Shown here: positions 27,711 to 56,360 of the stretch, in pieces
Position numbering within the stretch: position 1 is the first letter of the stretch
How the letters are laid out: every line of letters begins with the position of its first letter
From: a virus
IMG/VR virus record: IMGVR_UViG_3300025759_000063
Location: 48,202 to 112,201 of that record
Direction: 5' to 3' (one strand)
Length of the DNA: 64,000 bases
Notes under the pieces: generated by a model
The model's input: only the letters and a program-made list of their open reading frames with translations
Database searches by the model: none
What the model was told of the DNA's origin: nothing
Position numbers and translations under genes: made by a program

Positions 27711-28373
27711 TTATATTACATTGATTCCATATTTATGCGACAATTCCTTGTTTATATCATCCATAGAAACAAAACCCTTTATCGTAGACCAAGTTACTAT
27801 AGAATATCTTTTTCCTCTCGTAACTGGTTCTACTCCATGAACGTAAAAATGATTTGATGGGAAACATACCATCATTCCCGGTTCGGGTCTTATTCTAATT
27901 TTTAATTCCGGAAACACAAAATCTCCACCTTCAAAATTGTCATTTAGGAAAAATACGGTAGATATATCTCTATCTGTACTTTTTTTCCATATTTTTTCTC
28001 CTGTGGGGGATACCCAAATACTTTCACCATCCACATGAGGTTTATAATGTCCACCAATACCATATGAAAGTATTTGAGGAAATTCACTAGAATCAATCTC
28101 AATATCATAGAATGGATTTATAATTTGACTTACGCACTTTTTCAGTAGGTCTTCAATTTTTAGATACAAATTTCCTATTGGAACAATTTGAGTATCTCTG
28201 GTATTTTTATTTACGGACCAAGATATTTTTCCTGTTCTATTTGTTTCATGTGGATCAAAAATAGAAAGATCTTCTGATGCTGAAGATTCTATGTGTTGTA
28301 TAAGTTCTTGTAGTCCTTCTTTGTTAATCGCATTTGGTCTAATAAGAACATAAGATAAAGGATTTTCAATCAT
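27711..28373 (-). CDS. 2OG-Fe(II) oxygenase, prolyl-4-hydroxylase-like
   Basis: YGIGGHYKPHVD...FLNDNFEGG...FPS..HGVEPVTRGKRYSIV (HxD...H...RxS). Confidence 0.9.
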   Translation of the reverse strand: MIENPLSYVLIRPNAINKEGLQELIQHIESSASEDLSIFDPHETNRTGKISWSVNKNTRDTQIVPIGNLYLKIEDLLKKCVSQIINPFYDIEIDSSEFPQILSYGIGGHYKPHVDGESIWVSPTGEKIWKKSTDRDISTVFFLNDNFEGGDFVFPELKIRIRPEPGMMVCFPSNHFYVHGVEPVTRGKRYSIVTWSTIKGFVSMDDINKELSHKYGINVI

Positions 28374-28424: not shown

Positions 28425-31247
28425 TTACAAATAAACTGGTGTTGGTGAAATTGTTGTTGACGGAAGACTAGCACTTGATGCAGCAAGATAATATCGTCCT
28501 ATACTTAAATCTGCACCAGGAGCTGCTGCTGTGGTATCAGTGGAATAAGTGACCTTATCCATTGTTGCTCTGGGAGCAGGGACTCTACCACCACCAAAGT
28601 AACCATTAGTATTATTACCTGTTGCAGCAAGAGCACGCCGTGCTAAACTTAAATCTGCACCAGGAACTGCTGCTGCGGTATCAGTGGAATAAGTGACCTT
28701 ATCCATTGTTGCTACTGGACCAGGATTACCACCACCAAAGTAACCATTAGTACTATTACCTGTTGCAGCAAGAAAATAACGTCCTGAACGTAAATTCGCA
28801 CCAGGAGCTGCTGCTGTGGTATCAGTGGAATAAGTGACCTTTTCCATTGTTGATCTTGAAGGCTGCCCACCACCAAAGTAACCATTAGTATTATTACCTG
28901 TTGCAGCAAGAGCATATCTTGCTACAGTTAAATTGGCATTAGTGGGTGATGATATTGTATCTGTGGAATAAGTGACCTTATCCATTGTTGACTTTGAACC
29001 AGGATTACCACCACCAAAGTAACCATTAGTACTATTACCTGTTGCAGCAAGCCAATAGCGTGCTACACTTAAATCCGCACCAGGAACTGCTGCTGTGGTA
29101 TCTGTTGAATAAGTGACCTTATCCATTGTTGCTGTGGTAGGATTACCACCACCAAAGTAACCATTAGTAATATTACCTGTTCCAGCAAGACCATATCTTG
29201 CTACACTTAAATTTGCACCAGGAACTGCTGCTGTGGTATCTGTGGAATAAGTGACCTTATCCATTGTTGCTACTGGACCAGTACTACCACCACCAAAGTA
29301 ACCAGTGTTTGGTGCTGGTGAAATAGAGTCAAAAGTAGAAGATGTTGGAGTTGGTGCTGGAGGTTCTATTACAGGAAGTCCATTTGCCCTAGCACTTGAT
29401 GCAGCAAGACGATATCGTGCTGAACTTAAATTGGCATTAGGAACTGCTGCTGTGGTATCAGTGGAATAAGTGACCTTATCCATTGTTGCTGTGAGAGGAA
29501 AACCGCCACCAAAGTAACCATTAGTACTATTGCCTGTTGCGGCAAGAGCATAGCGTGCTGAACTTAAATTGGCACTAGGAGCTGCTGCTGTGGTATCTGT
29601 CGAATAAGTGACCTTATCAATTGTTGCTGTGACAGTAGGGATTCTACCACCACCAAAGTAACCATTGGTACTATTGCCTGTTGCAGCATGACGATATCGT
29701 ACTACACTTAAATCTGCACCAGGAACTGCTGCTGTGGTATCTGTTGAATAAGTGACCTTATCCATTGTTGCTACTGGACCAGGATTACCACCACCAAAGT
29801 AACCATTGGTACTATTGCCTGTTGCAGCAAGACGATATCGTGCTGAACTTAAATTGGCACTAGGAGCTGCTGCTGTGGTATCTGTTGAATAAGTGACCTT
29901 ATCCATTGTTGCTACTGGACCAGGATTACCACCACCAAAGTAACCATTGGTACTATTGCCTGTTGCAGCAAGAGCATAGCGTGCTAAACTTAAATCTGCA
30001 CCAGGAACTGCTGCTGTGGTATCAGTGGAATAAGTGACCTTATCCATTGTTGACTTTGAACCAGGATCACCACCACCAAAGTAACCATTGGTACTATTAC
30101 CTGTTGCAGCAAGAGCACGCCGTGCTACACTTAAATCTGCACCAGGAACTGCTGCTGTGGTATCTGTTGAATAAGTGACCTTATCCATTGTTGCTGTGGT
30201 AGGAGCACCACCACCAAAGTAACCAGTGTTTGGTGTAGGAAGAGTACCATCAGAAAATCTAGTTGCTGGAGGTTCTATTACAGGAAGACCATTTGCCCTA
30301 GCACTTGATGCAGCAAGAGCATATCTTGCTACACTTAAATCTGCACTAGAAGGAAGTGCTCCTGTGGTATCTGTTGAATAAGTGACCTTATCCATTGTTG
30401 CTGTGGTAGGAAAACCGCCACCAAAGTAACCATTGGTACTATTACCTGTTGCAGAAACATAATATCTTGCTACACTTAAATTTGCACTAGAAGGAAGTGC
30501 TCCTGTGGTATCAGTGGAATAAGTGACCTTATCTACTAATTGTGAGCTAGGAATACCACCACCAAAGTAACCGTTGGTACTGTTGCCTGTTGCAGCAAGA
30601 GCATAGTGTGCTACACTTAAATCTGCACCAGGAACTGCTGCTGTGGTATCAGTGGAATAAGTGACCTTATCCATTGTTGCTGTGGTAGGAGTACCACCAC
30701 CAAAGTAACCATTGGTACTGTTACCTGTAGCAGCAAGATATCTACGTGCTGCACTTAAATTGGCATTAGGAACTGCTGCTGTGGTATCAGTGGAATAAGT
30801 GACCTTATCCATTGTTGATACCCCACCAGGACCACCACCACCAAAGTAACCATTGGTACTATTACCTGTTGCAGCAACACCAAAACGTGCTAAACTTAAA
30901 TCTGCACCAGGAACTGCTGCTGTTGTATCGGTGGAATAAGTGACCTTATCCATTGTTGATTTTGGACCAGGATTACCACCACCAAAGTAACCGTTGGTAC
31001 CATTACCTGTTGCAGCAAGAGCTAAACGTGCTAAACTTAAATTGGCACCAGGAACTGCTGCTGTGGTATCTGTTGAATAAGTGACCTTATCCATTATTGA
31101 TGTGGCAGGAACACCACCACCAAAGTAACCAGTGTTTGGAGAACTTGGGGAAGGTACTATCCAAACTTCATCCAGAGGAACCCATTGATTGGAAAATTTA
31201 AATTTAAATGCTTCTTTAAGGGAAAATATTCCTCTGATGTTGGGCAT
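28425..31247 (-). CDS. Kelch-like repeat protein C (3 x 6 blades), putative virion/receptor-binding
   Basis: 18 repeats of ~47 aa, GYFGGG..var..MDKVTYSTDTTAAVPGADLSVAR..var..ATGNSTN. Confidence 0.8.
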   Translation of the reverse strand: MPNIRGIFSLKEAFKFKFSNQWVPLDEVWIVPSPSSPNTGYFGGGVPATSIMDKVTYSTDTTAAVPGANLSLARLALAATGNGTNGYFGGGNPGPKSTMDKVTYSTDTTAAVPGADLSLARFGVAATGNSTNGYFGGGGPGGVSTMDKVTYSTDTTAAVPNANLSAARRYLAATGNSTNGYFGGGTPTTATMDKVTYSTDTTAAVPGADLSVAHYALAATGNSTNGYFGGGIPSSQLVDKVTYSTDTTGALPSSANLSVARYYVSATGNSTNGYFGGGFPTTATMDKVTYSTDTTGALPSSADLSVARYALAASSARANGLPVIEPPATRFSDGTLPTPNTGYFGGGAPTTATMDKVTYSTDTTAAVPGADLSVARRALAATGNSTNGYFGGGDPGSKSTMDKVTYSTDTTAAVPGADLSLARYALAATGNSTNGYFGGGNPGPVATMDKVTYSTDTTAAAPSANLSSARYRLAATGNSTNGYFGGGNPGPVATMDKVTYSTDTTAAVPGADLSVVRYRHAATGNSTNGYFGGGRIPTVTATIDKVTYSTDTTAAAPSANLSSARYALAATGNSTNGYFGGGFPLTATMDKVTYSTDTTAAVPNANLSSARYRLAASSARANGLPVIEPPAPTPTSSTFDSISPAPNTGYFGGGSTGPVATMDKVTYSTDTTAAVPGANLSVARYGLAGTGNITNGYFGGGNPTTATMDKVTYSTDTTAAVPGADLSVARYWLAATGNSTNGYFGGGNPGSKSTMDKVTYSTDTISSPTNANLTVARYALAATGNNTNGYFGGGQPSRSTMEKVTYSTDTTAAAPGANLRSGRYFLAATGNSTNGYFGGGNPGPVATMDKVTYSTDTAAAVPGADLSLARRALAATGNNTNGYFGGGRVPAPRATMDKVTYSTDTTAAAPGADLSIGRYYLAASSASLPSTTISPTPVYL

Positions 31248-31314
31248 GACTTAAAAATATATTTTTTATAATCTTAATATCACTATTTAGATTATGTAAT
31301 TGTGATTTGTGATA

Positions 31315-34191
31315 TTACAAATAAACTGGTGCTGGTGAACTTGTTACTGGAAGACCATTTGCCCTAGCACTTGATGCAGCAAGACCATAACGTGCTAAAC
31401 TTAAATCTGCACCAGGAACTGCTGCTGTGGTATCAGTGGAATAAGTGACCTTATCCATTGTTGCTAATGGGCCAGTAAGACCACCACCAAAGTAACCATT
31501 AGTACTGTTTCCTGTTGCAGCAAAAACCCAACGTGCTACACTTAAATCTGCACCAGGAGCTGCTGCTGTTGTATCAGTGGAATAAGTGACCTTATCCATT
31601 GTTGCTACTGGACCAGGAATACCACCACCAAAGTAACCGTTGGTACTATTGCCTGTTGCAGCAAGATAAAATCTTGCTACACTTAAATTGGCACTAGGAG
31701 CTGCTGCTGTGGTATCAGTGGAATAAGTGACCTTATCCATTATTGCTGTGGTAGGAGAACCACCACCAAAGTAACCGTTGGTACTATTGCCTGTTGCAGC
31801 AAGATAAAATCTTGCTACACTTAAATTGGCACTAGAAGGAAGTGCTCCTGTGGTATCTGTCGAATAAGTGACCTTATCCATTATTGCTGTGTTAGGAGAA
31901 CCACCACCAAAGTAACCATTGGTACTATTACCTGTTGCAGCAAGATAAAAGCGTGCTACACTTAAATCTGCACTAGGAACTGCTGCTGTGGTATCTGTTG
32001 AATAAGTGACCTTATCCATTGTTGCTGTGATAGGAGAAGCACCACCACCAAAGTAACCATTGGTACTATTACCTGTTGCTGCGACGCCATAACGTGCTGC
32101 ACTTAAATTGGCACCAGGAGCTGCTGCTGTTGTATCAGTGGAATAAGTGACCTTATCCATTGTTGCTACTGGACCAGGAACACCACCACCAAAGTAACCA
32201 GTGTTTGGTGATTGAGCAGAAAAAGTAGAAGATGTTGGAGTTGGTGCTGGAGGTTCTATTACAGGAAGTCCATTTGCCCTAGCACTTGATGCGCCAAGAT
32301 TTGCGCGGCCAAGACTTAAATTGGCACTAGAAGGAAGTGCTCCTGTGGTATCTGTTGAATAAGTGACCTTATCCGTTGCTGCTGTGGTAGGCTGCCCACC
32401 ACCAAAGTAACCATTGGTACTGTTACCTGTTGCAGCAGGATAAGAACGTGCTACACTTAAATCTGCACCAGGAACTGCTGCTCTGGTATCAGTGGAATAA
32501 GTGACCTTATCCATTGTTGCTGTGGTAGGAAGACCCCCACCAAAGTAACCATTGGTACTATTACCTGTTGCAGCAAGTACACGACGTGCTACACTTAAAT
32601 CTGCACCAGGAACTGCTGCTGTGGTATCTGTCGAATAAGTGACCTTATCCATTGTTGTTACGTCATTGGAAGAAGACCTACCACCACCAAAGTAACCATT
32701 AGTACTATTACCTGTTGCAGCAACACCAAAACGTGCTACACTTAAATCTGCACCAGGAACTGCTGCTGTGGTATCAGTGGAATAAGTGACCTTATCCATT
32801 GTTGATACTGCAGGAAAATCGCCACCACCAAAGTAACCATTGGTACTGTTTCCTGTTGCAGCAACACCATATTTTGCTCCACTTAAATTGGCACTAGAAG
32901 GAAGTGCTGCTGTGGTATCAGTGGAATAAGTGATTTTTTCGATTGATGAAAAACCACTACCACCACCAAAGTAACCATCAGCACCATTACCTGTTGCAGT
33001 AAGACCATTACGTCCTACACTTAAATATGCATTAGGAACTGCTCCTGTGGTATCGTTGGAATAAGTGATCTTATCCACTGTTGTTTTTGGACCAAAGATA
33101 TCACCACTACCAAAGTAACCAGTGTTTGGAGTTGAAAAAATTCCATCAGAAAATCTATTTGGAGGCAAACTTAAAGGTTCTGAAGAAAATGTTCCTGTTG
33201 GAAGTCCATTTGCCCTAGCACTTGATGCAGCAAGAAAACCGCGTGCTACACTTAAATCTGCACCAGGAACTGCTGCTGTGGTATCTGTTGAATAAGTGAC
33301 CTTATCCATTGTTGCTGTGAGAGGAAAACCACCACCACCAAAGTAACCATTGGTACTGTTGCCTGTTGCGCCATAACCATAACGCTCTAAACTTAAATTT
33401 GCACTAGAAGGAAGTGCTCCTGTGGTATCAGTGGAATAAGTGACCTTATCCATTATTGATGCTGATGGACCAGTACCAGCACCAAAGTAACCATTAGTAC
33501 TATTACCTGTTGCAGCAAGACTATGTCGTGCTAGACTTAAATCTGCACCAGGAACTGCTGCTGTGGTATCTGTTGAATAAGTGACCTTATCCATTGTTGA
33601 CCTTGAACCCGGAAGACCACCACCAAAGTAACCATTAGTACTATTACCTGTTGCAGCAAGATTAAAACGTGCCAAACTTAAATCTGCACCAGGAACTGCT
33701 GCTGTGGTATCAGTGGAATAAGTGACCTTATCCATTGTTGCTGTGGTAGAAGGGAGTCTACCACCACCAAAGTAACCATTGGTACTATTACCTGTTGCGC
33801 CATGACTAAAACGTACTGCAGTTAAATTTGCACTAGGTGATCTTAATGTGGTCTCTGTCACATAATTTACCTTATCCATTATTGATACCGCAGAAGGAGT
33901 GCCACCCCCACCAAAGTAACCATTATTATTATTTCCTGTAGCGGCAATATATCTACGACCACCAGTTAAATTTGCACCAGGAACTGCTACTGTGGTATCT
34001 GTTGAATAAGTGACCTTATCCATTGTTGCAGTTACGGCGGGAGTAATACCACCACCAAAATAACCAGTGTTTGGAGTAGAAGTCAAAAATGGTGAGGGTG
34101 ATATCCAAACCTCATCCAGAGGAATACCATTATCAGTAACTTTTAAATTATATATTTTTTTAAATGTAAATATCCCTCTGGTATCAGGCAT
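31315..34191 (-). CDS. Kelch-like repeat protein B (3 x 6 blades)
   Basis: Same architecture, 18 repeats; MPDTRGIF N-terminus, PVYL C-terminus. Confidence 0.8.
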   Translation of the reverse strand: MPDTRGIFTFKKIYNLKVTDNGIPLDEVWISPSPFLTSTPNTGYFGGGITPAVTATMDKVTYSTDTTVAVPGANLTGGRRYIAATGNNNNGYFGGGGTPSAVSIMDKVNYVTETTLRSPSANLTAVRFSHGATGNSTNGYFGGGRLPSTTATMDKVTYSTDTTAAVPGADLSLARFNLAATGNSTNGYFGGGLPGSRSTMDKVTYSTDTTAAVPGADLSLARHSLAATGNSTNGYFGAGTGPSASIMDKVTYSTDTTGALPSSANLSLERYGYGATGNSTNGYFGGGGFPLTATMDKVTYSTDTTAAVPGADLSVARGFLAASSARANGLPTGTFSSEPLSLPPNRFSDGIFSTPNTGYFGSGDIFGPKTTVDKITYSNDTTGAVPNAYLSVGRNGLTATGNGADGYFGGGSGFSSIEKITYSTDTTAALPSSANLSGAKYGVAATGNSTNGYFGGGDFPAVSTMDKVTYSTDTTAAVPGADLSVARFGVAATGNSTNGYFGGGRSSSNDVTTMDKVTYSTDTTAAVPGADLSVARRVLAATGNSTNGYFGGGLPTTATMDKVTYSTDTRAAVPGADLSVARSYPAATGNSTNGYFGGGQPTTAATDKVTYSTDTTGALPSSANLSLGRANLGASSARANGLPVIEPPAPTPTSSTFSAQSPNTGYFGGGVPGPVATMDKVTYSTDTTAAAPGANLSAARYGVAATGNSTNGYFGGGASPITATMDKVTYSTDTTAAVPSADLSVARFYLAATGNSTNGYFGGGSPNTAIMDKVTYSTDTTGALPSSANLSVARFYLAATGNSTNGYFGGGSPTTAIMDKVTYSTDTTAAAPSANLSVARFYLAATGNSTNGYFGGGIPGPVATMDKVTYSTDTTAAAPGADLSVARWVFAATGNSTNGYFGGGLTGPLATMDKVTYSTDTTAAVPGADLSLARYGLAASSARANGLPVTSSPAPVYL

Positions 34192-34255
34192 GATTTATTG
34201 ATATTTTTTGATACTTAATATTATTATTTAGATTATGTAATTGTGATTTGTGATA

Positions 34256-37096
34256 TTACAAATAAACTGGTGCTGCTAATGGAAGTCCATTTGCCCTAGC
34301 ACTTGATGCGGTAACATACCTACGTTCCACGGTTAAATATGCACCAGGAACGTCTGCTGTGGTATCAGTAGAATAAGTGACCTTATCCATTGTTGATAAT
34401 ACTGGACTAGTTCTACCACCACCAAAGTAACCGCTGGTACTATTACCTGTTGCCCCAAGACCATTACGTGCTAAAGTTAAATTCGCACCAGGAACTGCTG
34501 CTGTGGTATCAGTGGAATAAGTGACCTTATCCATTGTTGACTTTGAACCAGGAGTACCACCACCAAAGTAACCATTGGTACTGTTACCTGTTGCAGCAGT
34601 AACCCAACGTGCTACACTTAAATTTGCACTAGAAGGAAGTGTTGATGTTGTATCGTTAGAATAAGTGACCTTATCAATTGTTACTAAGATAGGAACTCCC
34701 CCACCACCAAAATAACCATTGGTAGTGTTGCCTGTTGCAGAAATTCTATTAAATTCATTAATTAAATTGGCACTAGGAGCTGCTGCTGTGGTATCAGTGG
34801 AATAAGTGACCTTATCCATTGTTGATACTTTACCGGGAGATGAACCACCACCAAAGTAACCATTAGTACTATTACCTGTTGCGCCATGACCATATCTTGC
34901 TACACTTAAATCTGCACCAGGAACTGCTGCTGTGGTATCAGTGGAATAAGTGACCTTATCCATTGTTGCTACTGGACCAGGAAACCCACCACCAAAGTAA
35001 CCATTGGTGCCGTTACCTGTAGCAGTAGTGTAACGTGCTGCACTTAAATTGGCACTAGGAGCTGCTGCTGTGGTATCTGTTGAATAAGTGACCTTATCCA
35101 TTATTGCTGTAGTACCGGGAAGAAGTTCACCACCACCAAAGTAACCAGTGTTTGGTAATTGAGCAGAAACAGTAGAAGATGTTGGAGTTGGTGCTGGAGG
35201 TTCTATTGCAGGAAGTCCATTTTCCCTAGCACTTGATGCAGCAAGAGCACGCCGTGCTACACTTAAATCTGCACCAGGAACTGCTGCTGTTGTATCAGTA
35301 GAATAAGTGACCTTATCCATTGTTGATACTGGAACAGAATTACCACCACCAAAGTAACCATTGGTACTATTACCTGTTGCAGCAACATAAAATCTTGCTA
35401 CACTTAAATTGGCACTAGGAGCTGCTGCTGTTGTATCAGTGGAATAAGTGACCTTATCCATTATTGCTGTACTAGGATTACCACCACCAAAGTAACCGTT
35501 GGTACTATTACCTGTTGCAGCAAGACCATAACGTGCTACACTTAAATCTGCACCAGGAACTGCTGCTGTGGTATCAGTGGAATAAGTGACCTTATCCATT
35601 GTTGCGAATGGACCAGGCTGCCCACCACCAAAGTAACCATTGGTACTGTTACCTGTTGCAGCAATAAAACCGCGTGCTACACTTAAATCTGCACTAGAAG
35701 GAAGTGCTGCTGTGGTATCAGTGGAATAAGTGACCTTATCCATTGTTGCTGTGGTATCAGGGATTCTACCACCACCAAAGTAACCATTGGTACTATTGCC
35801 TGTTGCAGCATGAACATAGCGTGCTACACTTAAATCTGCACTAGGAGCTGCTGCTGTGGTATCTGTTGAATAAGTGACCTTATCCATTGTTGCTGTGATA
35901 GGAGTACCACCACCAAAGTAACCATTAGTACTATTACCTGTTGCAGCAGGATAAGCACGTGCTACACTTAAATTGGCATTAGGAACTGCTGCTGTGGTAT
36001 CAGTAGAATAAGTGACCTTATCCATTGTTGCTGTGTTAGGAGCACCACCACCAAAGTAACCAGTGTTTGGTGTCGGAAGAGCACCATCAGAAAATCTAGT
36101 TGCTAGAGGTTCTATTACAGGAAGTCCATTTGCCCTAGCACTTGATGCGCCACGATATCTTTTTGCTGCACTTAATGGAGATGATGTGAGTTCTGATACG
36201 GTCTCTGTCGAGTAATTAATCTTATCTAGAGTTGCTTTGCTAGGACTACCACCAGCAAAGTATCCGTCTGTTGAGTTTCCAGATCCAGTTATTCCATCCC
36301 CGGTATCACTTAAATAGACGCTAGGAACTGCTACTGTAGTATCAGTGGAATAAGTGATCTTATCTATTGTTGATACTGTACCAGGAATATTACCACCAGC
36401 AAAGTATCCGTGTGTTGAGTTTCCTGCTGCACCAAGTCCGCGACGTGCTGAACTTACATTGCCACTAGAAGGAAGTGCTCCTGTGGTATCAGTAGAATAA
36501 GTGACCTTATCCATTGTTGCTACATAGGGGCCGGGAAGATTGTCACCACCACCAAAGTAACCGTTGGTACTATTGCCTGTTGCAGCAAGAAAATATCTTC
36601 CTTGCGTTAAATCTGCACCAGGAACTGCTGCTGTGGTATCTGTAGAATAAGTGATCTTATCCATTGTTGATTTTTGTAAACGTCCCCCACCAAAGTAACC
36701 GTTGGTACTATTGCCTGTTGCAGCAAGACCATAACGTGCTGCACTTAAATTGGCACTAGGAGCTGCTACTGTGGTATCAGTGGAATAAGTGACCTTATCC
36801 ATTGTTGCTGCGGTAGGACTACCACCACCAAAGTAACCGTTGGTACCATTACCTGTTGCAGCAAGACCATAACGTGCTACACTTAAATCTGCACCAGGAA
36901 CTGCTCCTGTAGTATCTGTTGAATAAGTGACCTTATCCATTGTTGATACTGTAGGAAAACCGCCACCACCAAAGTAACCAGTGTTTGGAGAACTTGGGGG
37001 AGGTACTATCCAAACTTCATCCAGAGGAACCCATTGATTGGAAAGTTTAAATTCGGATATATCTTGAAAAGAAAATATTCCTCTGGTATCAGGCAT
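34256..37096 (-). CDS. Kelch-like repeat protein A (3 x 6 blades)
   Basis: Same architecture, 18 repeats. Confidence 0.8.
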   Translation of the reverse strand: MPDTRGIFSFQDISEFKLSNQWVPLDEVWIVPPPSSPNTGYFGGGGFPTVSTMDKVTYSTDTTGAVPGADLSVARYGLAATGNGTNGYFGGGSPTAATMDKVTYSTDTTVAAPSANLSAARYGLAATGNSTNGYFGGGRLQKSTMDKITYSTDTTAAVPGADLTQGRYFLAATGNSTNGYFGGGDNLPGPYVATMDKVTYSTDTTGALPSSGNVSSARRGLGAAGNSTHGYFAGGNIPGTVSTIDKITYSTDTTVAVPSVYLSDTGDGITGSGNSTDGYFAGGSPSKATLDKINYSTETVSELTSSPLSAAKRYRGASSARANGLPVIEPLATRFSDGALPTPNTGYFGGGAPNTATMDKVTYSTDTTAAVPNANLSVARAYPAATGNSTNGYFGGGTPITATMDKVTYSTDTTAAAPSADLSVARYVHAATGNSTNGYFGGGRIPDTTATMDKVTYSTDTTAALPSSADLSVARGFIAATGNSTNGYFGGGQPGPFATMDKVTYSTDTTAAVPGADLSVARYGLAATGNSTNGYFGGGNPSTAIMDKVTYSTDTTAAAPSANLSVARFYVAATGNSTNGYFGGGNSVPVSTMDKVTYSTDTTAAVPGADLSVARRALAASSARENGLPAIEPPAPTPTSSTVSAQLPNTGYFGGGELLPGTTAIMDKVTYSTDTTAAAPSANLSAARYTTATGNGTNGYFGGGFPGPVATMDKVTYSTDTTAAVPGADLSVARYGHGATGNSTNGYFGGGSSPGKVSTMDKVTYSTDTTAAAPSANLINEFNRISATGNTTNGYFGGGGVPILVTIDKVTYSNDTTSTLPSSANLSVARWVTAATGNSTNGYFGGGTPGSKSTMDKVTYSTDTTAAVPGANLTLARNGLGATGNSTSGYFGGGRTSPVLSTMDKVTYSTDTTADVPGAYLTVERRYVTASSARANGLPLAAPVYL

Positions 37097-37589
37097 GATT
37101 TATTAATATTTTTTGATACTTAATATTATTATTTAGATTGTATGAATGCCAAATATTGCCTTTAAATATAACCATGCGATTATATCTTGCAGGAATGCAA
37201 CCATACTCTTTCCACAATTCTGGATCAGAACTAAAAATATTTTTTAAACAATCTTCTTTAATCTGAAGATATTTAATTTCCTCTTGAGAAGGAAATACCT
37301 CCAAACCAGTTTGTTTATGTGAATAAAATTTAATTCCCAACTCTCCAAATGCTTCTAGGGGTAATGACATATAAATTACGGCAATCCAATCACATTTAAG
37401 ATGTGCCACAACCCCAGAATTTGTGTTTTTTTCGTTTGTTGCTTCTATGACACTAATTGGACCACCTAAAATTTGAGATATTTTACCAACAGTCTCATGA
37501 GTAAGTACACATTCGTTCTCAAAAAAACCTCTATGATAGTGATATGGAATATCATAGAAGTCATCAACCACAATTATTCTTTCATTCAT
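37089..37589 (-). CDS. Degenerate 2OG-Fe(II) oxygenase-like protein (DUF6445-like)
   Basis: IIVVDDFY...WIAVIYM...YNRMVIF...WHS; paralogous to 41524-42138 but HxD is replaced by HLK. Confidence 0.6.
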   Translation of the reverse strand: MNERIIVVDDFYDIPYHYHRGFFENECVLTHETVGKISQILGGPISVIEATNEKNTNSGVVAHLKCDWIAVIYMSLPLEAFGELGIKFYSHKQTGLEVFPSQEEIKYLQIKEDCLKNIFSSDPELWKEYGCIPARYNRMVIFKGNIWHSYNLNNNIKYQKILINHA

Positions 37590-37591
37590 TC

Positions 37592-40039
37592 TTATTTAAA
37601 TCCTTGTCCAAAGATTTTTTTATTTTCTTCCGCTGGTTTAATTGCTGCACCGTATCCCAAGTCAGTTCCGGTTAGTTTCTCATAACCTTTCAACACCTTA
37701 CTTTGTAAGTCTCCAATGAATTCCATACGTCCTCTTTGATCCATAAGTTTATCCATTGGGAGATAACCTTCTTTGAGATTATTTCTTTGATCGATTATTG
37801 ATGGTGCAGAAGCACGACGCATTGCTTGAATATTTGCGCCAGAAATTCCAGTTTGTGCTGCCATCAAATCATCCAATGCTTGCTCTGCAAGACGGGTATC
37901 CCAATAATTTTGATTCTCCTCTAAGAATTGCTCTCTATTTGGAGGATTGCCTCCATTTTGTGCAACAAGTTTTTCGAGAATTTTATCTAAATGTTCCATT
38001 TGATAAAGTCTATCGCGAATTTCAATTTCACTTCCTTTTAAGTAATGAGTCAGTTCTAATTCATCCAAATCATACCAACAAAGTTTCTTTCCTCCACCAC
38101 CAGGTCCACTAACTTCCCACATAAGAGGTTGGGACTTGTCCTCATGATTTTTCCACTTATATTCAAATTCGCGAACTTTTTCTTTCATTTCAATAAGCTT
38201 AAACATATATCCTGTTGCCATTATGCGACGTTCTTTTAGAATGTGTTCAAAAGAAACAGAGATATTATGAGTGTCGAGACCAATAAACTTTTCTATTTGG
38301 AAGTTAGTTCGACCCTGTGCCATTTCTTTGTCACTTTCTTCCCACTTAAGAACATTTTCAGATGCTTGACGAAGATATTCTTCATCATTCACCGCCTTTT
38401 TAGAATCTATGGGATTATAAGTCAACGCGGAAGAGTTTTCAGTAGACATAGTTTTTTCTTTCATTTTTGATTGACGTGTTGCAAAAAATATTCCTGTTTT
38501 ATAAGGCGTATTTTCTATATTATGTATAATGAAATTTTTACTTTCCAAAAATTGAATTAAATCCTTTATGGTTTTTCCTTCAATATCAAAATTTGTATGG
38601 CAAGAAGATAATTCATGATATTCACCAACAATATTCTCAATTTTCTCAATAAGACTTGAATTCATTAGTATTTCATACTCAGAACCTTCAGCATCAATTT
38701 TGAGTAGACTCACTTTCTCAAAATCTTTCAGTATGTAGTCAAGAGAAACTGTTTTTACATTTACTTCTTCAATTTTTTCTGGAAAGTCTATGGATTGTGG
38801 ATGTTTGTAAAAAGAATTTACGCCTGTGTTATAGCAATTATGGTTATAAAATATAACATTTTCTGAGTTTTCTTTCCAAACTGCTATATTATTTGCTTTC
38901 CACCCTTCATAATTCTTGAGATTTTTTAGGAGATATTCGTAGTTATTCTTATTTGCCTCATAACATGTAATATTTTTACATCCTTTATCTAAACATAACT
39001 TGGCAAAATATCCACGATGGGAACCAATATCAATAACAATATCATTTTCTGAAAATTCTTTTATTTTATATTCATTCTTTAAATATACTTCTTTATAAAT
39101 TTCAGAATCGAAACTATCTGGTTGAAAGTAAACTTGAGTAATTTGAACAATTAGATTCCTCCACTGCTCTGCAATATCTTTCCAATTGTACTTTTCTACA
39201 ACATGATCTGATATAATCTTTGAAACTTCTTTATAAAATTTAGGTTGATGATCATAATAATCAAGTGCTTTACAGCAAGCATTTGTAAAATCTATGATAA
39301 ATTTATCAGTAATTTTCCACCCACTTGAAGTGTTCTCGCCATCAATGGGAACAACTGTTGCATTTCTTTCTCCAGCAACCTCAGAAAGTGCTCCAATATT
39401 TGTAATTATTGGATAAGAACCGCAACGCATTGCTTCTCCCATTGAAACTCCAAATGTCTCCTCCCAAATACAAGGGTGGATAAAAAATGCAGATTCTTGA
39501 TATTGCTTTACTAGGTCTTCCCTATCAACTGCTTCAGAATATTCAACATTTGGTATTTTTTTTAGATGATCATAAATGCTTAAAAAATTATCTGGTCCAG
39601 GTCCATATAATGACATTGATGAAAAGATTTTAAACTTTACATCAGGATGTTGTTCTTGAATTCTTGGAATGACTTTTGCCAACACTTCCAAACCTTTATA
39701 TGGTACAGAAGTATAGATCATTGTTTTTGTTTTTTTATCTGAATAAGAAAACATATCTGCAACACCATTTGGTATTACACTGATCTTGTCTTCTGGAACA
39801 TTGTGGTGTATAATAAACTGTTCCTTATTCCATTGAGACGGAGAAACAATGTGATTTACAATATTGTGATCAAAATCTAAAAATAATGGTTGGTCATAAG
39901 CATGATGTGCCCATAAAATTTTGTATTCTTGATTTGATTTTTTTATTTCTTGTGGAATATGAGAAACAAATACATTCTCCGGAAATGAATAATGCTCTTG
40001 TAGATAAAAATAAGATGTTTCAGTTGCTCCAGATTTCAT
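37592..40039 (-). CDS. Fusion: GT4-like glycosyltransferase + FkbM methyltransferase + helical C-terminal domain
   Basis: IYTSVPYKGL...EETFGVSMGEAM..G (GT-B); VIDIGSHRG...LLKIDAEGSEYEIL (FkbM); C-terminal ~280 aa helical. Confidence 0.85.
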   Translation of the reverse strand: MKSGATETSYFYLQEHYSFPENVFVSHIPQEIKKSNQEYKILWAHHAYDQPLFLDFDHNIVNHIVSPSQWNKEQFIIHHNVPEDKISVIPNGVADMFSYSDKKTKTMIYTSVPYKGLEVLAKVIPRIQEQHPDVKFKIFSSMSLYGPGPDNFLSIYDHLKKIPNVEYSEAVDREDLVKQYQESAFFIHPCIWEETFGVSMGEAMRCGSYPIITNIGALSEVAGERNATVVPIDGENTSSGWKITDKFIIDFTNACCKALDYYDHQPKFYKEVSKIISDHVVEKYNWKDIAEQWRNLIVQITQVYFQPDSFDSEIYKEVYLKNEYKIKEFSENDIVIDIGSHRGYFAKLCLDKGCKNITCYEANKNNYEYLLKNLKNYEGWKANNIAVWKENSENVIFYNHNCYNTGVNSFYKHPQSIDFPEKIEEVNVKTVSLDYILKDFEKVSLLKIDAEGSEYEILMNSSLIEKIENIVGEYHELSSCHTNFDIEGKTIKDLIQFLESKNFIIHNIENTPYKTGIFFATRQSKMKEKTMSTENSSALTYNPIDSKKAVNDEEYLRQASENVLKWEESDKEMAQGRTNFQIEKFIGLDTHNISVSFEHILKERRIMATGYMFKLIEMKEKVREFEYKWKNHEDKSQPLMWEVSGPGGGGKKLCWYDLDELELTHYLKGSEIEIRDRLYQMEHLDKILEKLVAQNGGNPPNREQFLEENQNYWDTRLAEQALDDLMAAQTGISGANIQAMRRASAPSIIDQRNNLKEGYLPMDKLMDQRGRMEFIGDLQSKVLKGYEKLTGTDLGYGAAIKPAEENKKIFGQGFK

Positions 40040-40043
40040 AATA

Positions 40044-40697
40044 CTACCCCTGATAAATGTGATAACCTGTGTGATTTAAATGAATACTTGTGTCTAACCA
40101 AATATCATATCCTACTTGCGAAGCTCTGTAAAAAAAACTTTTGTCCTCCGACATAAACCCATTTTTGGACTTATGTTCAGCAAAATAATGATATGAGTTT
40201 CTAATTTCTCCACATGTGTGTGGAGTATCTGAATGATAGTCCGAAGGAATATATTTTAGATCTGGATATTTTCTTGCAATTTCTAAGAATACCTGGCGAT
40301 GAATGAGAACAAATCCCATTCCATTTCCATTTATTTTAAGTAAATTACCATCTCTTCTTTCTGGTTGAGATACTTCTACACAATATCTTTCCGGGATTAC
40401 CTTCATTGGATAAGCACCAGATACTATTGGAACTTGATGTGAAAGTAGTTTAATTACATCTTCAGATTCGAATCCAATATCACTATCCAAGAAGAGAAGA
40501 TAATCATGTTCTGTATTGTTAATAAAAAAATTTGCTATCTTTGACCTTGCCTGAGTAATCAAAGATGAGTTGGAAAGGGTTAACAACCCATGATTTATAT
40601 CATTTCTAATTAATGTTTTTCCTAAATTAAACAATCCAACAGTTGTCTTTTCACTTACAACCCCACCTCCGCAGGGTAATCCTATCATTATACCCAT
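40044..40697 (-). CDS. GT-A glycosyltransferase-like protein
   Basis: SLITQARS...LLFLDSDIGF...GMGFVLIHR...SEDKSFF...LNHTG. Confidence 0.8.
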   Translation of the reverse strand: MGIMIGLPCGGGVVSEKTTVGLFNLGKTLIRNDINHGLLTLSNSSLITQARSKIANFFINNTEHDYLLFLDSDIGFESEDVIKLLSHQVPIVSGAYPMKVIPERYCVEVSQPERRDGNLLKINGNGMGFVLIHRQVFLEIARKYPDLKYIPSDYHSDTPHTCGEIRNSYHYFAEHKSKNGFMSEDKSFFYRASQVGYDIWLDTSIHLNHTGYHIYQG

Positions 40698-40699
40698 AA

Positions 40700-41530
40700 T
40701 TAATAATACCTATGATTATAATTTTTCCAGTATTCTAAGTTGCTGTAGGTATTTATGATCTCTTGGGATAAAACATCTTGAGGTGATTTTGATTTTTTTT
40801 CAAGTCTTTTTCTTACATGATGCATGTCCTTGAGATACCATTGGTCATCAATCTCTCTATGAGTATTCTCAATATTGTTAAAATTGTGAGAATAGTAATC
40901 CAACTCTAAGAAATTGTAGATATCTGCCAATGTTTTTTCTGGGAAATTAATCAAATCTTCATATTCTACCATGTGTAGATATTTTTTACCATCACCCCTT
41001 ATAAAAGCTTGAGATTGAGCCCACAATGCTTGTTCGACAATCCCATCTTTACTCATCAAATAATGGCAACGATTGTCATTGTTGATTGGTAAATTATGTT
41101 CAATAAGATATTGGTCTACGAATGATACCTGATCTGAATTACGATTTATTAATTCAATGAAAGATGTCAATATTTCTGTAATATTTCTTACTGGACAGAT
41201 AATTTTGGGAAAGGGAGTGATAAAAGTTTTTATCATTTCAATGTTGTTACTCCAGGCCCGACAATGATCTATAATTATTGGTTTTTCTACTTCCACATAA
41301 TAATTGTTAATAATACTTGAAATGACTTTATGTGCGGACTTTGGTTTTGGGTATCCCAGATATTGTTCACTATCCTTAAAATACTCATTGTTATAATGAG
41401 TTAGTTCTAAAACTGGACTAACGGGTTCTGTATGGAGTATTGGATTTTGATTAAGAATACTCTTTAATAAAGTGCTTCCTGATCTTGGAAGACCCGCCAT
41501 AAAATAATATTTTTTGTTCATGTTCACCAA
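40700..41530 (-). CDS. Sulfotransferase family protein
   Basis: MAGLPRSGSTLL 5'-PAPS-binding loop; KIICPVRN...ILTS; VEYEDL. Confidence 0.85.
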   Translation of the reverse strand: MVNMNKKYYFMAGLPRSGSTLLKSILNQNPILHTEPVSPVLELTHYNNEYFKDSEQYLGYPKPKSAHKVISSIINNYYVEVEKPIIIDHCRAWSNNIEMIKTFITPFPKIICPVRNITEILTSFIELINRNSDQVSFVDQYLIEHNLPINNDNRCHYLMSKDGIVEQALWAQSQAFIRGDGKKYLHMVEYEDLINFPEKTLADIYNFLELDYYSHNFNNIENTHREIDDQWYLKDMHHVRKRLEKKSKSPQDVLSQEIINTYSNLEYWKNYNHRYY

Positions 41531-42138
41531 CCAGTGGGATTAAAAAAGAATAATTGAACTAATCGACCATTTTCTAGAGAATTGCCAAAATTATAATTAT
41601 GAGAATGCCATAAGTCAGCTCTGAATATTACAATACGATTGTAATTCATTGGGGACAATAAGTATCTAGTCCATTTTGATCTATCTAGTCCTTCTCCATA
41701 AACAGTTGTATTCCATGCTTCTTTTGATGAGAAATAACCATAATGATTTGCTTCTTTGTCTGTTTGTGGACACCTTTCCATTTTAGTTTTATTATGCATC
41801 CAAAATGAGGTCCCACCTTCATCAATAGATTGTTCTGGTGGATTGAGATAACAAACAGCACCAAATTCCCATGTCGGATCTACATGAACATCTTGGCGAT
41901 AAGAGTCTGACTCCAACGACAATCTAAAGTATCCGTTGGGTTGTGCTGGAATGAGTTTGCGATTGAGAATTGACTCAAATCTATTGTGAAGTTCTGGGGG
42001 ATAGTAGTTGTCTTGTGAATTTTTTCCTGGATATGTGTACTGATCACTGGGATCGGGATATGGTGAGTTTAATGCTATTTTTCTTATCTTATCTGGTTCA
42101 GAATAAAAACCATCAAGTATAATAATACTACGTCTCAT
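41524..42138 (-). CDS. 2OG-Fe(II) oxygenase-like protein (DUF6445-like)
   Basis: DVHVD...AVCYLNP...GGTSFW...YNRIVIF...WHS...RLVQLFF. Confidence 0.8.
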   Translation of the reverse strand: MRRSIIILDGFYSEPDKIRKIALNSPYPDPSDQYTYPGKNSQDNYYPPELHNRFESILNRKLIPAQPNGYFRLSLESDSYRQDVHVDPTWEFGAVCYLNPPEQSIDEGGTSFWMHNKTKMERCPQTDKEANHYGYFSSKEAWNTTVYGEGLDRSKWTRYLLSPMNYNRIVIFRADLWHSHNYNFGNSLENGRLVQLFFFNPTGW

Positions 42139-46015: not shown

Positions 46016-46083
46016 TTTTAATTCTACCCTTCTATAATAGTATTTAGATTGTTATTTTTTGCAAATTGGTATTGATAAAATTA

Positions 46084-48963: not shown

Positions 48964-48967
48964 TTAC

Positions 48968-49318
48968 TTATTGTTTTGCGGTTTCAAGAATGCTTAATAC
49001 AATATTTAATTCATTATTGGCGCTTGCCTGGACTTTAATCACATCATTTGTTTCAAGCGCCAATCTTCCGTCTGGAACTAAATTTATACTATCATTTGGG
49101 GGGACAAATGAATTATTTGCAAATTTGTAGTCTGCTGGAATTTCTCCAGGACGAGAATGAATTGCTGTAATTTGAGAAGTTGTGTCTGATGTAAGGTTAG
49201 TAACCTGAGCCAAAATAACAATTGCAGCAACTCCAACAGGACAAGTATAAATTCCAACAGAACTTGTTGTTAGTTCTTTTCTGATTGTTTTAAAACTATT
49301 AAGTGCTACTGCTGCCAT
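48968..49318 (-). CDS. Small virion structural protein
   Basis: IYTCP...V.N...LALETND.I.V...L.IVLSILE pattern; similar to the C-terminal domains of 42179-46015. Confidence 0.7.
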   Translation of the reverse strand: MAAVALNSFKTIRKELTTSSVGIYTCPVGVAAIVILAQVTNLTSDTTSQITAIHSRPGEIPADYKFANNSFVPPNDSINLVPDGRLALETNDVIKVQASANNELNIVLSILETAKQ

Positions 49319-49319
49319 T

Positions 49320-54623: not shown

Positions 54624-54670
54624 TTGTTCTACTCGAAAGGTTCACTATCCCCTTGTTATTTATTTATAAA

Positions 54671-56350: not shown

Positions 56351-56360
56351 TTTACTTTAC

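What the first reader, a model, noticed from the sequence alone, without database searches (positions are those of the whole stretch)
28425..37096. 54-blade hypervariable beta-propeller array: a candidate recombination-shuffled binding repertoire on the virion
Seen: three tandem paralogues, each built of exactly three domains of six ~47-aa repeats. Each domain opens with PNTGYFG and closes with ASSA. The framework is nearly invariant even at synonymous sites (e.g. AATAAGTGACCTTATCCATTGTTG recurs throughout). Variation concentrates in two spots per repeat: the loop after GYFGGG (VPAT, NPGP, RIPT, QPS, DNLPGPY, ELLPG, RLQK...) and the residues after LSxAR (YAL, FGV, RYL, YWL, WVF, SYP, GFI...). 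The same loop alleles recur in different blades and different genes (FPLTATM in B and C; PGSKSTM in A and C; GGGQP and PGPVATM in all three). Established: Kelch repeats form six-bladed propellers closed by a C-terminal strand, and these two loop positions form the ligand-binding face. Inference: the locus is a combinatorial library of nine binding surfaces reshuffled by homologous recombination or gene conversion between blades, an RT-independent analogue of DGR/VLR diversification, probably for host-surface recognition.
Basis: partly seen in the sequence, partly recalled or inferred. Interest (0 to 1): 0.85.

Follow-up and report, generated by a model that had tools for sequence, protein, structure and literature searches.

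The report
Hypervariable Kelch-propeller genes in a cyanophage
A T4-like virus of marine cyanobacteria carries three neighbouring genes that each encode three six-bladed Kelch propellers with a constant scaffold and fast-changing loops on one face, and near-identical viruses from other samples carry swapped blades and whole propellers here, so this is a recombining hot spot that probably encodes host-binding parts.

Summary
Three tandem minus-strand genes each hold 18 repeats of about 47 residues, in three groups of six (54 in all). A profile of the domain matches solved Kelch domains. A confident model (pLDDT 95.8) superposes on KEAP1 and KLHL propellers (TM 0.83-0.90).

Variation sits in the B-C loop and at the end of the D-A loop, which by propeller topology lie on one face. 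dN/dS there is 2.5-4.5, against 0.26 in the framework. Linkage between polymorphisms inside a blade is almost nil, so simple serial duplication is excluded.

Three independent metagenome contigs have flanks at least 99% identical to the window. They carry replaced blades, a replaced propeller, sub-blade mosaics and an in-frame loss of one propeller.

No reverse transcriptase, template copy, silent cassette or recombinase was found. Only about a fifth of the strain differences have an exact donor in the arrays seen. The best reading is therefore ordinary homologous recombination plus diversifying selection on likely late-expressed adhesins, not a programmed generator. Virion location and ligand are untested.

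This scan found the same family in at least four other genomes, with similar readings. The strain comparison is what this report adds.

The parts
34256..37096 (-). Gene A: 946 aa. N-terminal module of about 37 aa, three six-bladed Kelch propellers (36119-36994, 35210-36076, 34280-35161), C-terminal P-V-Y-L tail.
   Evidence: Identical in two independent contigs, L064 and L065.
31315..34191 (-). Gene B: 958 aa, three propellers (33199-34080, 32263-33135, 31348-32214). The most polymorphic gene between strains.
28425..31247 (-). Gene C: 940 aa, three propellers (30282-31145, 29373-30239, 28452-29318). Domain 2 was modelled. Domain 1 is absent in strain contig L065.
37130..37136 (-). CTAAATA motif (T4-type late-promoter variant) 34 nt upstream of the gene A start.
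34225..34231 (-). CTAAATA motif 34 nt upstream of the gene B start, in an intergenic spacer nearly identical to the B-C spacer.
31284..31290 (-). CTAAATA motif 37 nt upstream of the gene C start.
37089..37589 (-). DUF6445 protein (166 aa) whose stop overlaps the gene A start. This pairing is conserved in nearly all related contigs.
27711..28373 (-). 2OG-Fe(II) oxygenase (PF13640) directly downstream of the array. The same position is seen in S-SKS1 and many related contigs.
37592..42138 (-). Conserved tailoring-enzyme block: GT1 glycosyltransferase fused to an FkbM methyltransferase (37592-40039), an unknown 217-aa protein (40044-40697), a sulfotransferase (40700-41530) and a second DUF6445 protein (41524-42138). 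At least 99% identical between strains.
42179..61844 (-). Upstream co-directional tail-fibre and structural genes (1278, 959, 116, 1767, 559 and 1827 aa). The 1278-aa gene is a second strain-variable stretch (82-91% identity to L064).

Best explanation
The three genes encode strings of three six-bladed Kelch propellers. In each blade the B-C loop and the last residues of the D-A loop are hypervariable. Together these loops form one face of the propeller, the face that Kelch domains use to bind partners.

Shown here: the locus is a recombination hot spot within a natural population of a T4-like cyanomyovirus.

Inferred mechanism: the nucleotide-identical framework tracts of 65-78 nt between the variable patches act as homology for the phage's general recombination machinery. 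Exchange takes place between blades, between paralogues and between co-infecting strains. It swaps sub-blade tracts, blades and whole propellers, and it keeps the framework homogenised. Diversifying selection keeps the new loops. No dedicated diversity generator is needed.

Inferred function: the genes are expressed late. The proteins are virion-attached adhesins or accessory host-recognition parts, and may be decorated by the adjacent hydroxylase, glycosyltransferase and sulfotransferase genes.
For: Fold.
- The domain profile matches solved Kelch domains over its full length: SAKe6FR E 1.9e-11, KLHL12 E 1e-7.
- The AlphaFold model has pLDDT 95.8 and pTM 0.93, with 24 strands.
- Foldseek gives TM 0.83-0.90 to KEAP1, KLHL3, KLHL12 and the designed SAKe6 proteins.

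Selection.
- dN/dS is 4.5 at columns 41-43, 2.5 in the B-C loop core and 0.26 in the framework.

Mosaicism.
- Of 820 pairs among 41 polymorphic sites, 88% show all four gametes. r2 falls from 0.118 to about 0.03 beyond 15 nt.
- Shared loop sub-alleles are nucleotide-identical but sit beside different neighbouring alleles.
- The longest exact repeat is 107 nt; most are 65-78 nt.

Concerted evolution or recent expansion.
- All nine domains form one clade (support 99/93) apart from those of three related phages.
- Framework pS is 0.20 within this array. It is 0.48-0.49 in two relatives that each show only a single array gene in the DNA held.

Population.
- In contigs L064, L065 and L066 the flanks differ from the window by 0.3-0.9%, while individual array genes are either identical or 7-10% different.
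- Differences are block-like with sharp borders, and incompatible site patterns are interleaved in gene B.
- There is a whole-propeller replacement, a one-propeller in-frame deletion and sub-blade tract swaps.
- One variant propeller is 100% identical in two independent samples.

Context.
- The array lies directly downstream of tail-fibre genes on the same strand.
- A CTAAATA late-promoter-like motif sits 34-37 nt before each start. All 11 copies in the window are on the coding strand, and the motif is described for phage Aeh1 in PMC1524935.
- A Kelch-domain protein was found in the virion of phage CBB by mass spectrometry (PMC5259590). The nearest viral models include jumbo-phage proteins annotated as virion structural proteins.
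Against: - No proteomic, structural or binding datum places these proteins on the particle or names a ligand.
- The face assignment rests on topology and on a model, not on measured coordinates.
- About 78% of multi-difference tracts between strains have no exact donor in the arrays seen. Replaced blades are at best 86-95% identical to any blade of the window. Intragenomic shuffling is therefore not the main visible source. Import from unseen strains and point mutation cannot be told apart.
- Metagenome assemblies of repeats can be chimeric. The window's gene B and domain 1 of gene C have no independent confirmation.
- dN/dS on short, partly saturated and indel-rich loops is rough.
- The record is only about 52% complete.
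Confidence: 0.55

Rival explanations
1. The propellers are not virion parts. They are intracellular binders made during infection, such as adaptors or decoys that capture host proteins or defence factors, as poxvirus Kelch proteins do. The loop variation would then reflect an arms race with host intracellular targets.
For: Kelch propellers are classic protein-protein adaptors, and the best fold matches are KEAP1 and KLHL substrate receptors. Poxvirus Kelch proteins are among the viral matches. The proteins have no recognisable tail-fibre, collar or Ig-like domain.
Against: There is no BTB or other effector domain. The genes follow the tail-fibre genes on the same strand, each with a late-promoter-like motif. 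A family-wide conserved N-terminal module of about 35 aa and a hydrophobic C-terminal tail look like docking pieces. The genes are linked to glycosyl-, methyl- and sulfotransferases, which fits an exposed surface product.
Confidence: 0.2
2. Neutral repeat dynamics. The array is a recently amplified repeat in which surface loops are simply unconstrained. Recombination and strain differences are by-products of repetitiveness, possibly inflated by chimeric assembly, with no selected binding repertoire.
For: Low framework dS within the array, against 0.48-0.49 in relatives that each show only a single array gene in the DNA held, points to recent expansion. Kelch repeats are under-recovered and fragmented in short-read viromes (PMC9238414). 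Most variant tracts have no donor.
Against: dN/dS is well above 1 in both patches and 0.26 in the framework. All 54 loop combinations are unique. The same two patches are the variable ones across 116 domains from many phages. Variant haplotypes recur exactly in independent samples. All reading frames are intact in all strains, and the deletion is in frame.
Confidence: 0.15
3. A programmed diversifier acts on the array. This could be a diversity-generating retroelement or another targeted mutator or site-specific recombinase encoded in the missing half of the genome.
For: The variable codons mostly keep their third base fixed (NNT or NNA), a pattern also seen in DGR targets. The record is only about 52% complete.
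Against: There is no reverse transcriptase in the 112 kb held. There is no extra template-like copy outside the three genes, and all copies are in direct orientation. The variable positions take all four bases and include length changes. Strain differences are block replacements, not scattered point changes. No recombinase lies near the array.
Confidence: 0.04

Closest known systems
Kelch-repeat six-bladed beta-propellers (KEAP1, KLHL3, KLHL12, designed SAKe6 proteins)
   Same: Repeats of about 47 residues with a GG doublet after strand B and a conserved Arg before strand A. Six four-stranded blades. Closure by a C-terminal strand. TM 0.83-0.90.
   Different: Pfam Kelch models miss these proteins. 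The Kelch Trp is replaced by small residues. There is no BTB/BACK part. Three propellers are strung in one chain, in three tandem genes. The loops are hypervariable.
gp38 adhesins of T-even phages: glycine-rich motifs flanking hypervariable segments, reshuffled by recombination at the conserved motifs (Trojet et al. 2011, PMC3157838; Tetart et al. 1998, as cited there)
   Same: A phage of the T4 superfamily. Conserved Gly-rich scaffold motifs alternate with hypervariable segments. Exchange occurs within or next to the conserved motifs. Specificity elements are drawn from a population-wide pool.
   Different: The fold is unrelated and there is no sequence similarity. gp38 has 4 variable segments against 108 variable patches here. 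The tail-tip location and receptor are proven for gp38 and unknown here.
Kelch-domain virion proteins of large phages (CBB_552 of vB_PcaM_CBB; proteins of PhiPA3, Phabio and Noxifer annotated as virion structural proteins; BcepSaruman Kelch-motif protein)
   Same: Phage-encoded Kelch propellers, one of them shown in particles by mass spectrometry (PMC5259590). They are structural matches to the model.
   Different: They are single propellers with sequence identity of 13-29%. No hypervariable loops or tandem arrays have been reported for them.
Diversity-generating retroelements acting on phage receptor-binding proteins (Mtd, tentaclins; PMC10743442)
   Same: Diversity is focused on a ligand-binding surface of a stable scaffold in a phage host-recognition locus.
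   Different: There is no reverse transcriptase, no template repeat and no adenine-specific pattern here. The diversity appears on the population time-scale, through recombination.
Llyrvirus S-SKS1 and related uncultured T4-like cyanophages, and the same family reported by this scan in other genomes
   Same: The same protein family, with the same order DUF6445 - Kelch array - 2OG oxygenase and the same enzyme set.
   Different: The number of genes (1-3) and of propellers per gene (2-5) differs. In the S-SKS1 record the array is not annotated.

Membership tests
Kelch-repeat beta-propeller superfamily | Tandem repeats of 44-56 residues with a GG doublet, a conserved aromatic residue in the next strand and a conserved Arg before the first strand | tested here: met
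   There are 54 units of 46-51 aa. GYFGGG, the Y of VTYS and the R of SVAR are near-invariant. The usual Trp is replaced by Ala or Val.
Kelch-repeat beta-propeller superfamily | Pfam Kelch models reach their thresholds | tested here: not met
   No Kelch family hits any of the three proteins even at E <= 1. A few distant homologues carry PF24681, PF13964 or PF01344.
Kelch-repeat beta-propeller superfamily | Significant profile-level sequence similarity to solved Kelch domains over the whole domain | tested here: met
   The profile of 116 domains gives SAKe6FR E 1.9e-11 (positions 10-282 of 296) and KLHL12 E 1.1e-7.
Kelch-repeat beta-propeller superfamily | Six four-stranded antiparallel blades closed by a strand from the other end of the chain | tested here: met
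   Predicted only. pLDDT is 95.8 with 24 strands, and the last strand (LAAS) completes the blade begun by the first three. TM is 0.83-0.90 to KEAP1 and KLHL domains.
Diversity-generating retroelement target | A reverse transcriptase encoded nearby | tested here: not met
   PF00078 finds nothing in the 112 kb held, while the control genomes gave hits. The record is about 52% complete, so absence from the whole genome is not proven.
Diversity-generating retroelement target | A template repeat paired with the variable repeat, with differences confined to template adenines | tested here: not met
   There is no copy outside the three genes. Variable codons use all four bases in positions 1 and 2, and loops differ in length.
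Cassette-based antigenic variation (VLR or pilin type) | Silent donor cassettes outside the expressed gene | tested here: not met
   All 18 matches in the record lie inside the three intact genes. About 78% of strain-variant tracts have no donor in the arrays seen.
Shufflon or invertible tail-fibre segment | Inverted repeats plus a site-specific recombinase | tested here: not met
   All repeat copies are on one strand. None of the 22 flanking ORFs that were scanned (26596-62327) matches a recombinase family; the nearest nuclease is an HNH endonuclease 25 kb away.
gp38-type modular adhesin (functional analogy, not homology) | Conserved motifs alternate with hypervariable segments, and exchanges fall in the conserved motifs | tested here: met
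   Framework tracts of 65-78 nt are identical between blades. Linkage is lost across each variable patch. Strain breakpoints fall at a linker and in the framework.
gp38-type modular adhesin (functional analogy, not homology) | Location at the tail-fibre tip and receptor binding | not testable with these tools
   Only gene context is available: the array lies downstream of tail-fibre genes and carries late-promoter-like motifs.

The most novel reading that the evidence does not exclude
The array is a standing, reverse-transcriptase-independent diversity generator. Selection keeps the framework nucleotide-identical so that the T4-type recombination machinery reshuffles loop tracts among 54 blades, and among co-infecting genomes, at high frequency within single infections. 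Each burst would then hold a spectrum of nine-propeller binding repertoires, a recombinational counterpart of DGRs and VLRs.
Probability: 0.15. Interest if true: 0.85.

Novelty: new variant of a known kind. Interest (0 to 1): 0.62.

Why it matters
Host-recognition genes are the fastest-moving part of marine phage genomes, yet for cyanophages the proteins that carry the variation are largely unknown.

This family has more than 880 members in marine metagenomes. It matches no Pfam family, its only strong PHROG match is a family of unknown function, and it is not annotated in the S-SKS1 reference genome. It offers a defined scaffold whose variable face can be read from sequence. It also shows micro-diversity between strains that are otherwise at least 99% identical.

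If the proteins bind the host surface, they give a direct handle on phage-Synechococcus co-evolution and on the islands of phage genomes that recruit few metagenomic reads. They would also be a natural library of engineerable propeller binders. If the shuffling proves fast, this would be a second route to focused protein diversification in phages, independent of reverse transcription.

Tried and rejected
- A first fold from the nine own domains alone failed (pLDDT 39.5). It worked only after I built a 116-domain alignment from related loci.
- Megablast of the array and of the tail-fibre block against deposited phages found nothing. tblastn found only five records at under 40% identity.
I therefore found strain variants through the neighbouring DUF6445 protein in metagenome contigs.
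- The same approach from the other flank in IMG/VR gave no relative closer than 84%.
- DGR, silent-cassette and invertase readings were tested and rejected.
- The canonical T4 late promoter TATAAATA does not precede the three genes. The variant CTAAATA does.
- I looked for whole-blade donors of the strain-specific blades in the window's array and found none that are exact.
- I asked whether replaced propellers came from more distant phage lineages. They did not: their nearest relatives are domains of this same lineage at 84-86%.
- I asked whether the synonymous conservation of the framework is a universal nucleotide constraint. It is not: two relatives have pS of 0.48-0.49.
- Coordinates of the model are not available to scripts, so the variable residues were not mapped in 3D. 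The face assignment is topological.
Full report
WHAT IS THERE

The window is the second half of a 112-kb IMG/VR virus record that CheckV estimates to be about 52% complete. Three tandem minus-strand genes lie at:
- A: 34256-37096 (946 aa)
- B: 31315-34191 (958 aa)
- C: 28425-31247 (940 aa)

Each gene splits into 18 units of 46-51 residues. The consensus unit runs GYFGGG, a variable loop, MDKVTYSTDTT, AAVPGADLSVAR, three variable residues, then AATGNSTN. Every sixth unit ends in ASSA and is followed by a Pro/Ser/Thr-rich linker. Every group of six opens with PNTGYFG. The description is therefore correct: 3 genes x 3 domains x 6 blades = 54.

FOLD

Pfam finds no family for these proteins, and the only strong PHROG match is family 19111, of unknown function.

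A model built from the nine own domains failed (pLDDT 39.5). I then collected related IMG/VR loci, cut out 107 further domains with an HMM and aligned them with the nine own domains, 116 in all (A2).
- The profile of A2 matches solved Kelch domains over its whole length: designed SAKe6FR at E 1.9e-11 and KLHL12 at E 1.1e-7.
- With A2, domain 2 of gene C folds with pLDDT 95.8 and pTM 0.93, into 24 strands.
- Foldseek places the model on KEAP1, KLHL3, KLHL12, KLHL17 and SAKe6 at TM 0.83-0.90.
- Among viral models it matches S-SKS1, a BcepSaruman Kelch-motif protein, jumbo-phage proteins annotated as virion structural proteins, and poxvirus Kelch proteins.

In the model each blade reads:
- strand A (LAAT)
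- turn (GNST)
- strand B (NGYFG)
- B-C loop, which is variable patch 1
- strand C (MDKVT)
- turn
- strand D (TTAA)
- D-A loop (VPGADLSVAR), followed by variable patch 2

The last strand of the domain (LAAS) completes the blade that the first three strands begin, so the propeller is closed by its C-terminal strand. In a four-stranded antiparallel blade the B-C and D-A connections emerge on the same face. Both variable patches therefore lie on one face, and from general knowledge of Kelch domains this is the face they use for partners. This step is topological. I could not measure it on coordinates.

HOW THE 54 BLADES RELATE

- Uniqueness. 52 of 54 B-C loops, 37 D-A triplets and all 54 combinations are unique.
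- Selection. Nei-Gojobori estimates among units give dN/dS of 4.5 for columns 41-43, 2.5 for the B-C loop core and 0.26 for the framework, whose dS is 0.24. Many framework codons are fixed, and fixed by position: Tyr is TAC in GYF but TAT in TYS. This is identity by descent, not codon bias. A dozen third positions are nevertheless polymorphic.
- Mosaicism. Among 41 sites with a minor allele in at least 6 units, 88% of site pairs show all four gametes. Mean r2 drops from 0.118 within 15 nt to about 0.03 beyond.
- Shared sub-alleles. Recurring loop sub-alleles (PGPVAT, PGSKST, FPLTAT, PTTAT) are nucleotide-identical in different blades and genes, yet sit beside different first loop residues, different mid-segment alleles and different D-A triplets.
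- Repeat length. The longest exact repeat is 107 nt. The typical one is a 65-78-nt framework tract bounded by the variable patches.

A tree-like history of serial duplication is thus excluded. The blades are fine-scale mosaics.

COMPARISON WITH OTHER PHAGES

The family is large. More than 881 proteins reached E <= 0.001 among the candidates scored, nearly all from marine metagenomes. Their lengths cluster near 650, 980, 1290 and 1620 residues, which corresponds to two to five propellers.

In a domain tree all nine domains of the window form one clade (support 99/93), apart from those of three related phages. In two of those phages the domains group by position within the protein instead.

Framework synonymous diversity differs between lineages:
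- 0.20 within this array
- 0.14-0.17 in two other arrays
- 0.48-0.49 in two relatives that each show only a single array gene in the DNA held

The neighbouring gene has dS of 0.84-1.23 against all of these relatives. Homogeneity is therefore lineage-specific. It reflects recent expansion and/or gene conversion, not a universal nucleotide constraint.

POPULATION VARIANTS (THE NEW EVIDENCE)

The 166-aa DUF6445 protein just upstream of gene A retrieved three metagenome contigs with a 99-100% identical copy: L064, L065 and L066. Their flanks differ from the window by 0.3-0.9%. Differences pile up in the array, where individual genes are either identical or 7-10% different.
- Gene A has the same blade sequences in L064 and, apart from blade 2, in L065 (one or two further residue differences lie in the N-terminal module and a linker; 1-6 nucleotide differences in 2.8 kb). 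In L066 its whole second propeller is replaced, starting sharply at the domain 1/2 linker. Blades 13 and 14 of L066 carry swapped mid-segment tracts only.
- Gene B differs in all three contigs. Incompatible site patterns (abba, abbb, aaab, aabb) are interleaved within 250-nt bins.
- Gene C of L065 lacks its first propeller through an in-frame junction.
- The B domain 1 allele of L064 and L065 is 100% identical over 855 nt in the two samples, so the variants are reproducible haplotypes.

Between-strain differences are several times denser in the loops than in the framework. However, replaced blades are only 86-95% identical to the best blade of the window. Only about 22% of multi-difference tracts have an exact copy elsewhere in the arrays seen. 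Replaced propellers are nearest to domains of this same lineage (84-86%), not to other phage lineages. The population therefore holds a repertoire larger than any one genome. Exchange between strains and conversion between blades both seem to contribute, and their shares cannot be separated with three partial haplotypes.

MECHANISM CANDIDATES EXCLUDED

- No reverse transcriptase is present in the 112 kb held.
- No template or silent copy lies outside the three genes, and all copies are on one strand.
- Variable codons use all four bases, and loops vary in length.
- No recombinase was found among the flanking ORFs that were scanned.

CONTEXT AND LIKELY ROLE

The phage is a T4-like cyanomyovirus. 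Its UvsW-type helicase is 62-63% identical to those of S-SKS1, S-B43, S-B05 and Bellamy, and all 419 matching records are cyanophages or marine viruses. The host is presumably Synechococcus, but this is an inference.

The array follows a run of tail-fibre and structural genes on the same strand. It is embedded in a conserved set of genes: DUF6445, a GT1 glycosyltransferase fused to an FkbM methyltransferase, a sulfotransferase, a second DUF6445 and a 2OG-Fe(II) oxygenase. The order DUF6445 - array - oxygenase recurs in S-SKS1 and in dozens of uncultured contigs, with one to three array genes.

Each of the three genes is preceded, at 34-37 nt, by CTAAATA. All 11 copies of this heptamer in the window are on the coding strand and lie just upstream of starts. 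The same variant was identified as the late promoter of the T4-like phage Aeh1 (PMC1524935).

All family members share an N-terminal module of about 35 residues (T-R-G-x-F ... D-V-W-I-x-P-S-P) and a short hydrophobic C-terminal tail (P-V-Y-L or P-V-I-V). These may be docking pieces.

A Kelch-domain protein is a proven virion component in phage CBB (PMC5259590). All of this fits a late, particle-attached, possibly decorated adhesin, but none of it shows that.

COMPARISON WITH WHAT IS KNOWN

By fold and by profile these proteins belong to the Kelch superfamily, although Pfam's models miss them.

By mode of variation the closest described case is the gp38 adhesin of T-even phages. There, conserved glycine-rich motifs alternate with hypervariable segments, and recombination at the conserved motifs swaps specificity from a population-wide pool (PMC3157838). 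The principle here is the same, on an unrelated scaffold and at 54-blade scale.

I found no paper that describes this family or its variability. One genomics paper lists a Kelch-repeat protein unique to cyanophage P-HM2 (PMC3037559). A long-read study notes that Kelch-repeat proteins are nine times under-recovered in short-read viral assemblies (PMC9238414).

This scan has met the same family in at least four other genomes (five counting this one). Follow-up readings there match mine: tandem Kelch propellers behind tail-fibre genes, ordinary recombination rather than a programmed generator, and linked tailoring enzymes.

VERDICT

The fold, the one-face variable patches, the mosaicism and the population polymorphism hold. 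Virion location, host binding and a DGR/VLR-like programmed mechanism are not shown, and the last is unlikely.

I rate this a new variant of a known kind, with interest 0.62.

Noticed in passing
L099:11784-13159 (NC_020851.1 201783-203158): The S-SKS1 reference genome has an unannotated gap between a hypothetical gene next to the 2OG oxygenase and the genes before the sulfotransferase. It encodes at least nine Kelch blades of this family in one open frame, whose 5' end runs into stops. The array was missed, or broken, in the deposited record.
   Followed up: partly
window 2927-63268, minus strand: All 11 copies of CTAAATA in the window are on the coding strand and lie about 20-40 nt upstream of gene starts, including the three Kelch genes, the 2OG oxygenase and the 1278-aa structural gene. 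The total count is not above chance, but the strand and position bias suggests that this is the phage's late-promoter variant.
   Followed up: partly
window 27711-28373 and 37089-42138: The array is bracketed by a 2OG-Fe(II) oxygenase, two DUF6445 proteins, a GT1 glycosyltransferase fused to an FkbM methyltransferase, and a sulfotransferase. The propellers have Pro/Ser/Thr-rich linkers and an N-S-T motif in nearly every A-B turn, on the face opposite the variable loops. They are plausible substrates for hydroxylation, glycosylation and sulfation.
   Followed up: no
window 43048-46642: The 1278-aa tail-fibre-like gene is a second strain-variable stretch. It is 82-91% identical to contig L064, while the adjacent 37.1-43.0 kb enzyme block is at least 99% identical.
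   Followed up: partly
window 36986-37096, 34081-34191, 31146-31247 and the gene 3' ends: A conserved N-terminal module (M-x-x-T-R-G-I/V-F ... L-D-E-V-W-I-x-P-S-P) and a conserved hydrophobic C-terminal tail (P-V-Y-L here, P-V-I-V or similar elsewhere) are shared across the whole family, even by members whose propeller domains are under 50% identical to the window's. They may be assembly or docking signals.
   Followed up: partly
window 31248-31314 and 34192-34255: The two intergenic spacers inside the array are nearly identical to each other (about 65 nt, with the same CTAAATA context). The duplication or conversion unit therefore includes the promoter region, not only the coding repeats.
   Followed up: no
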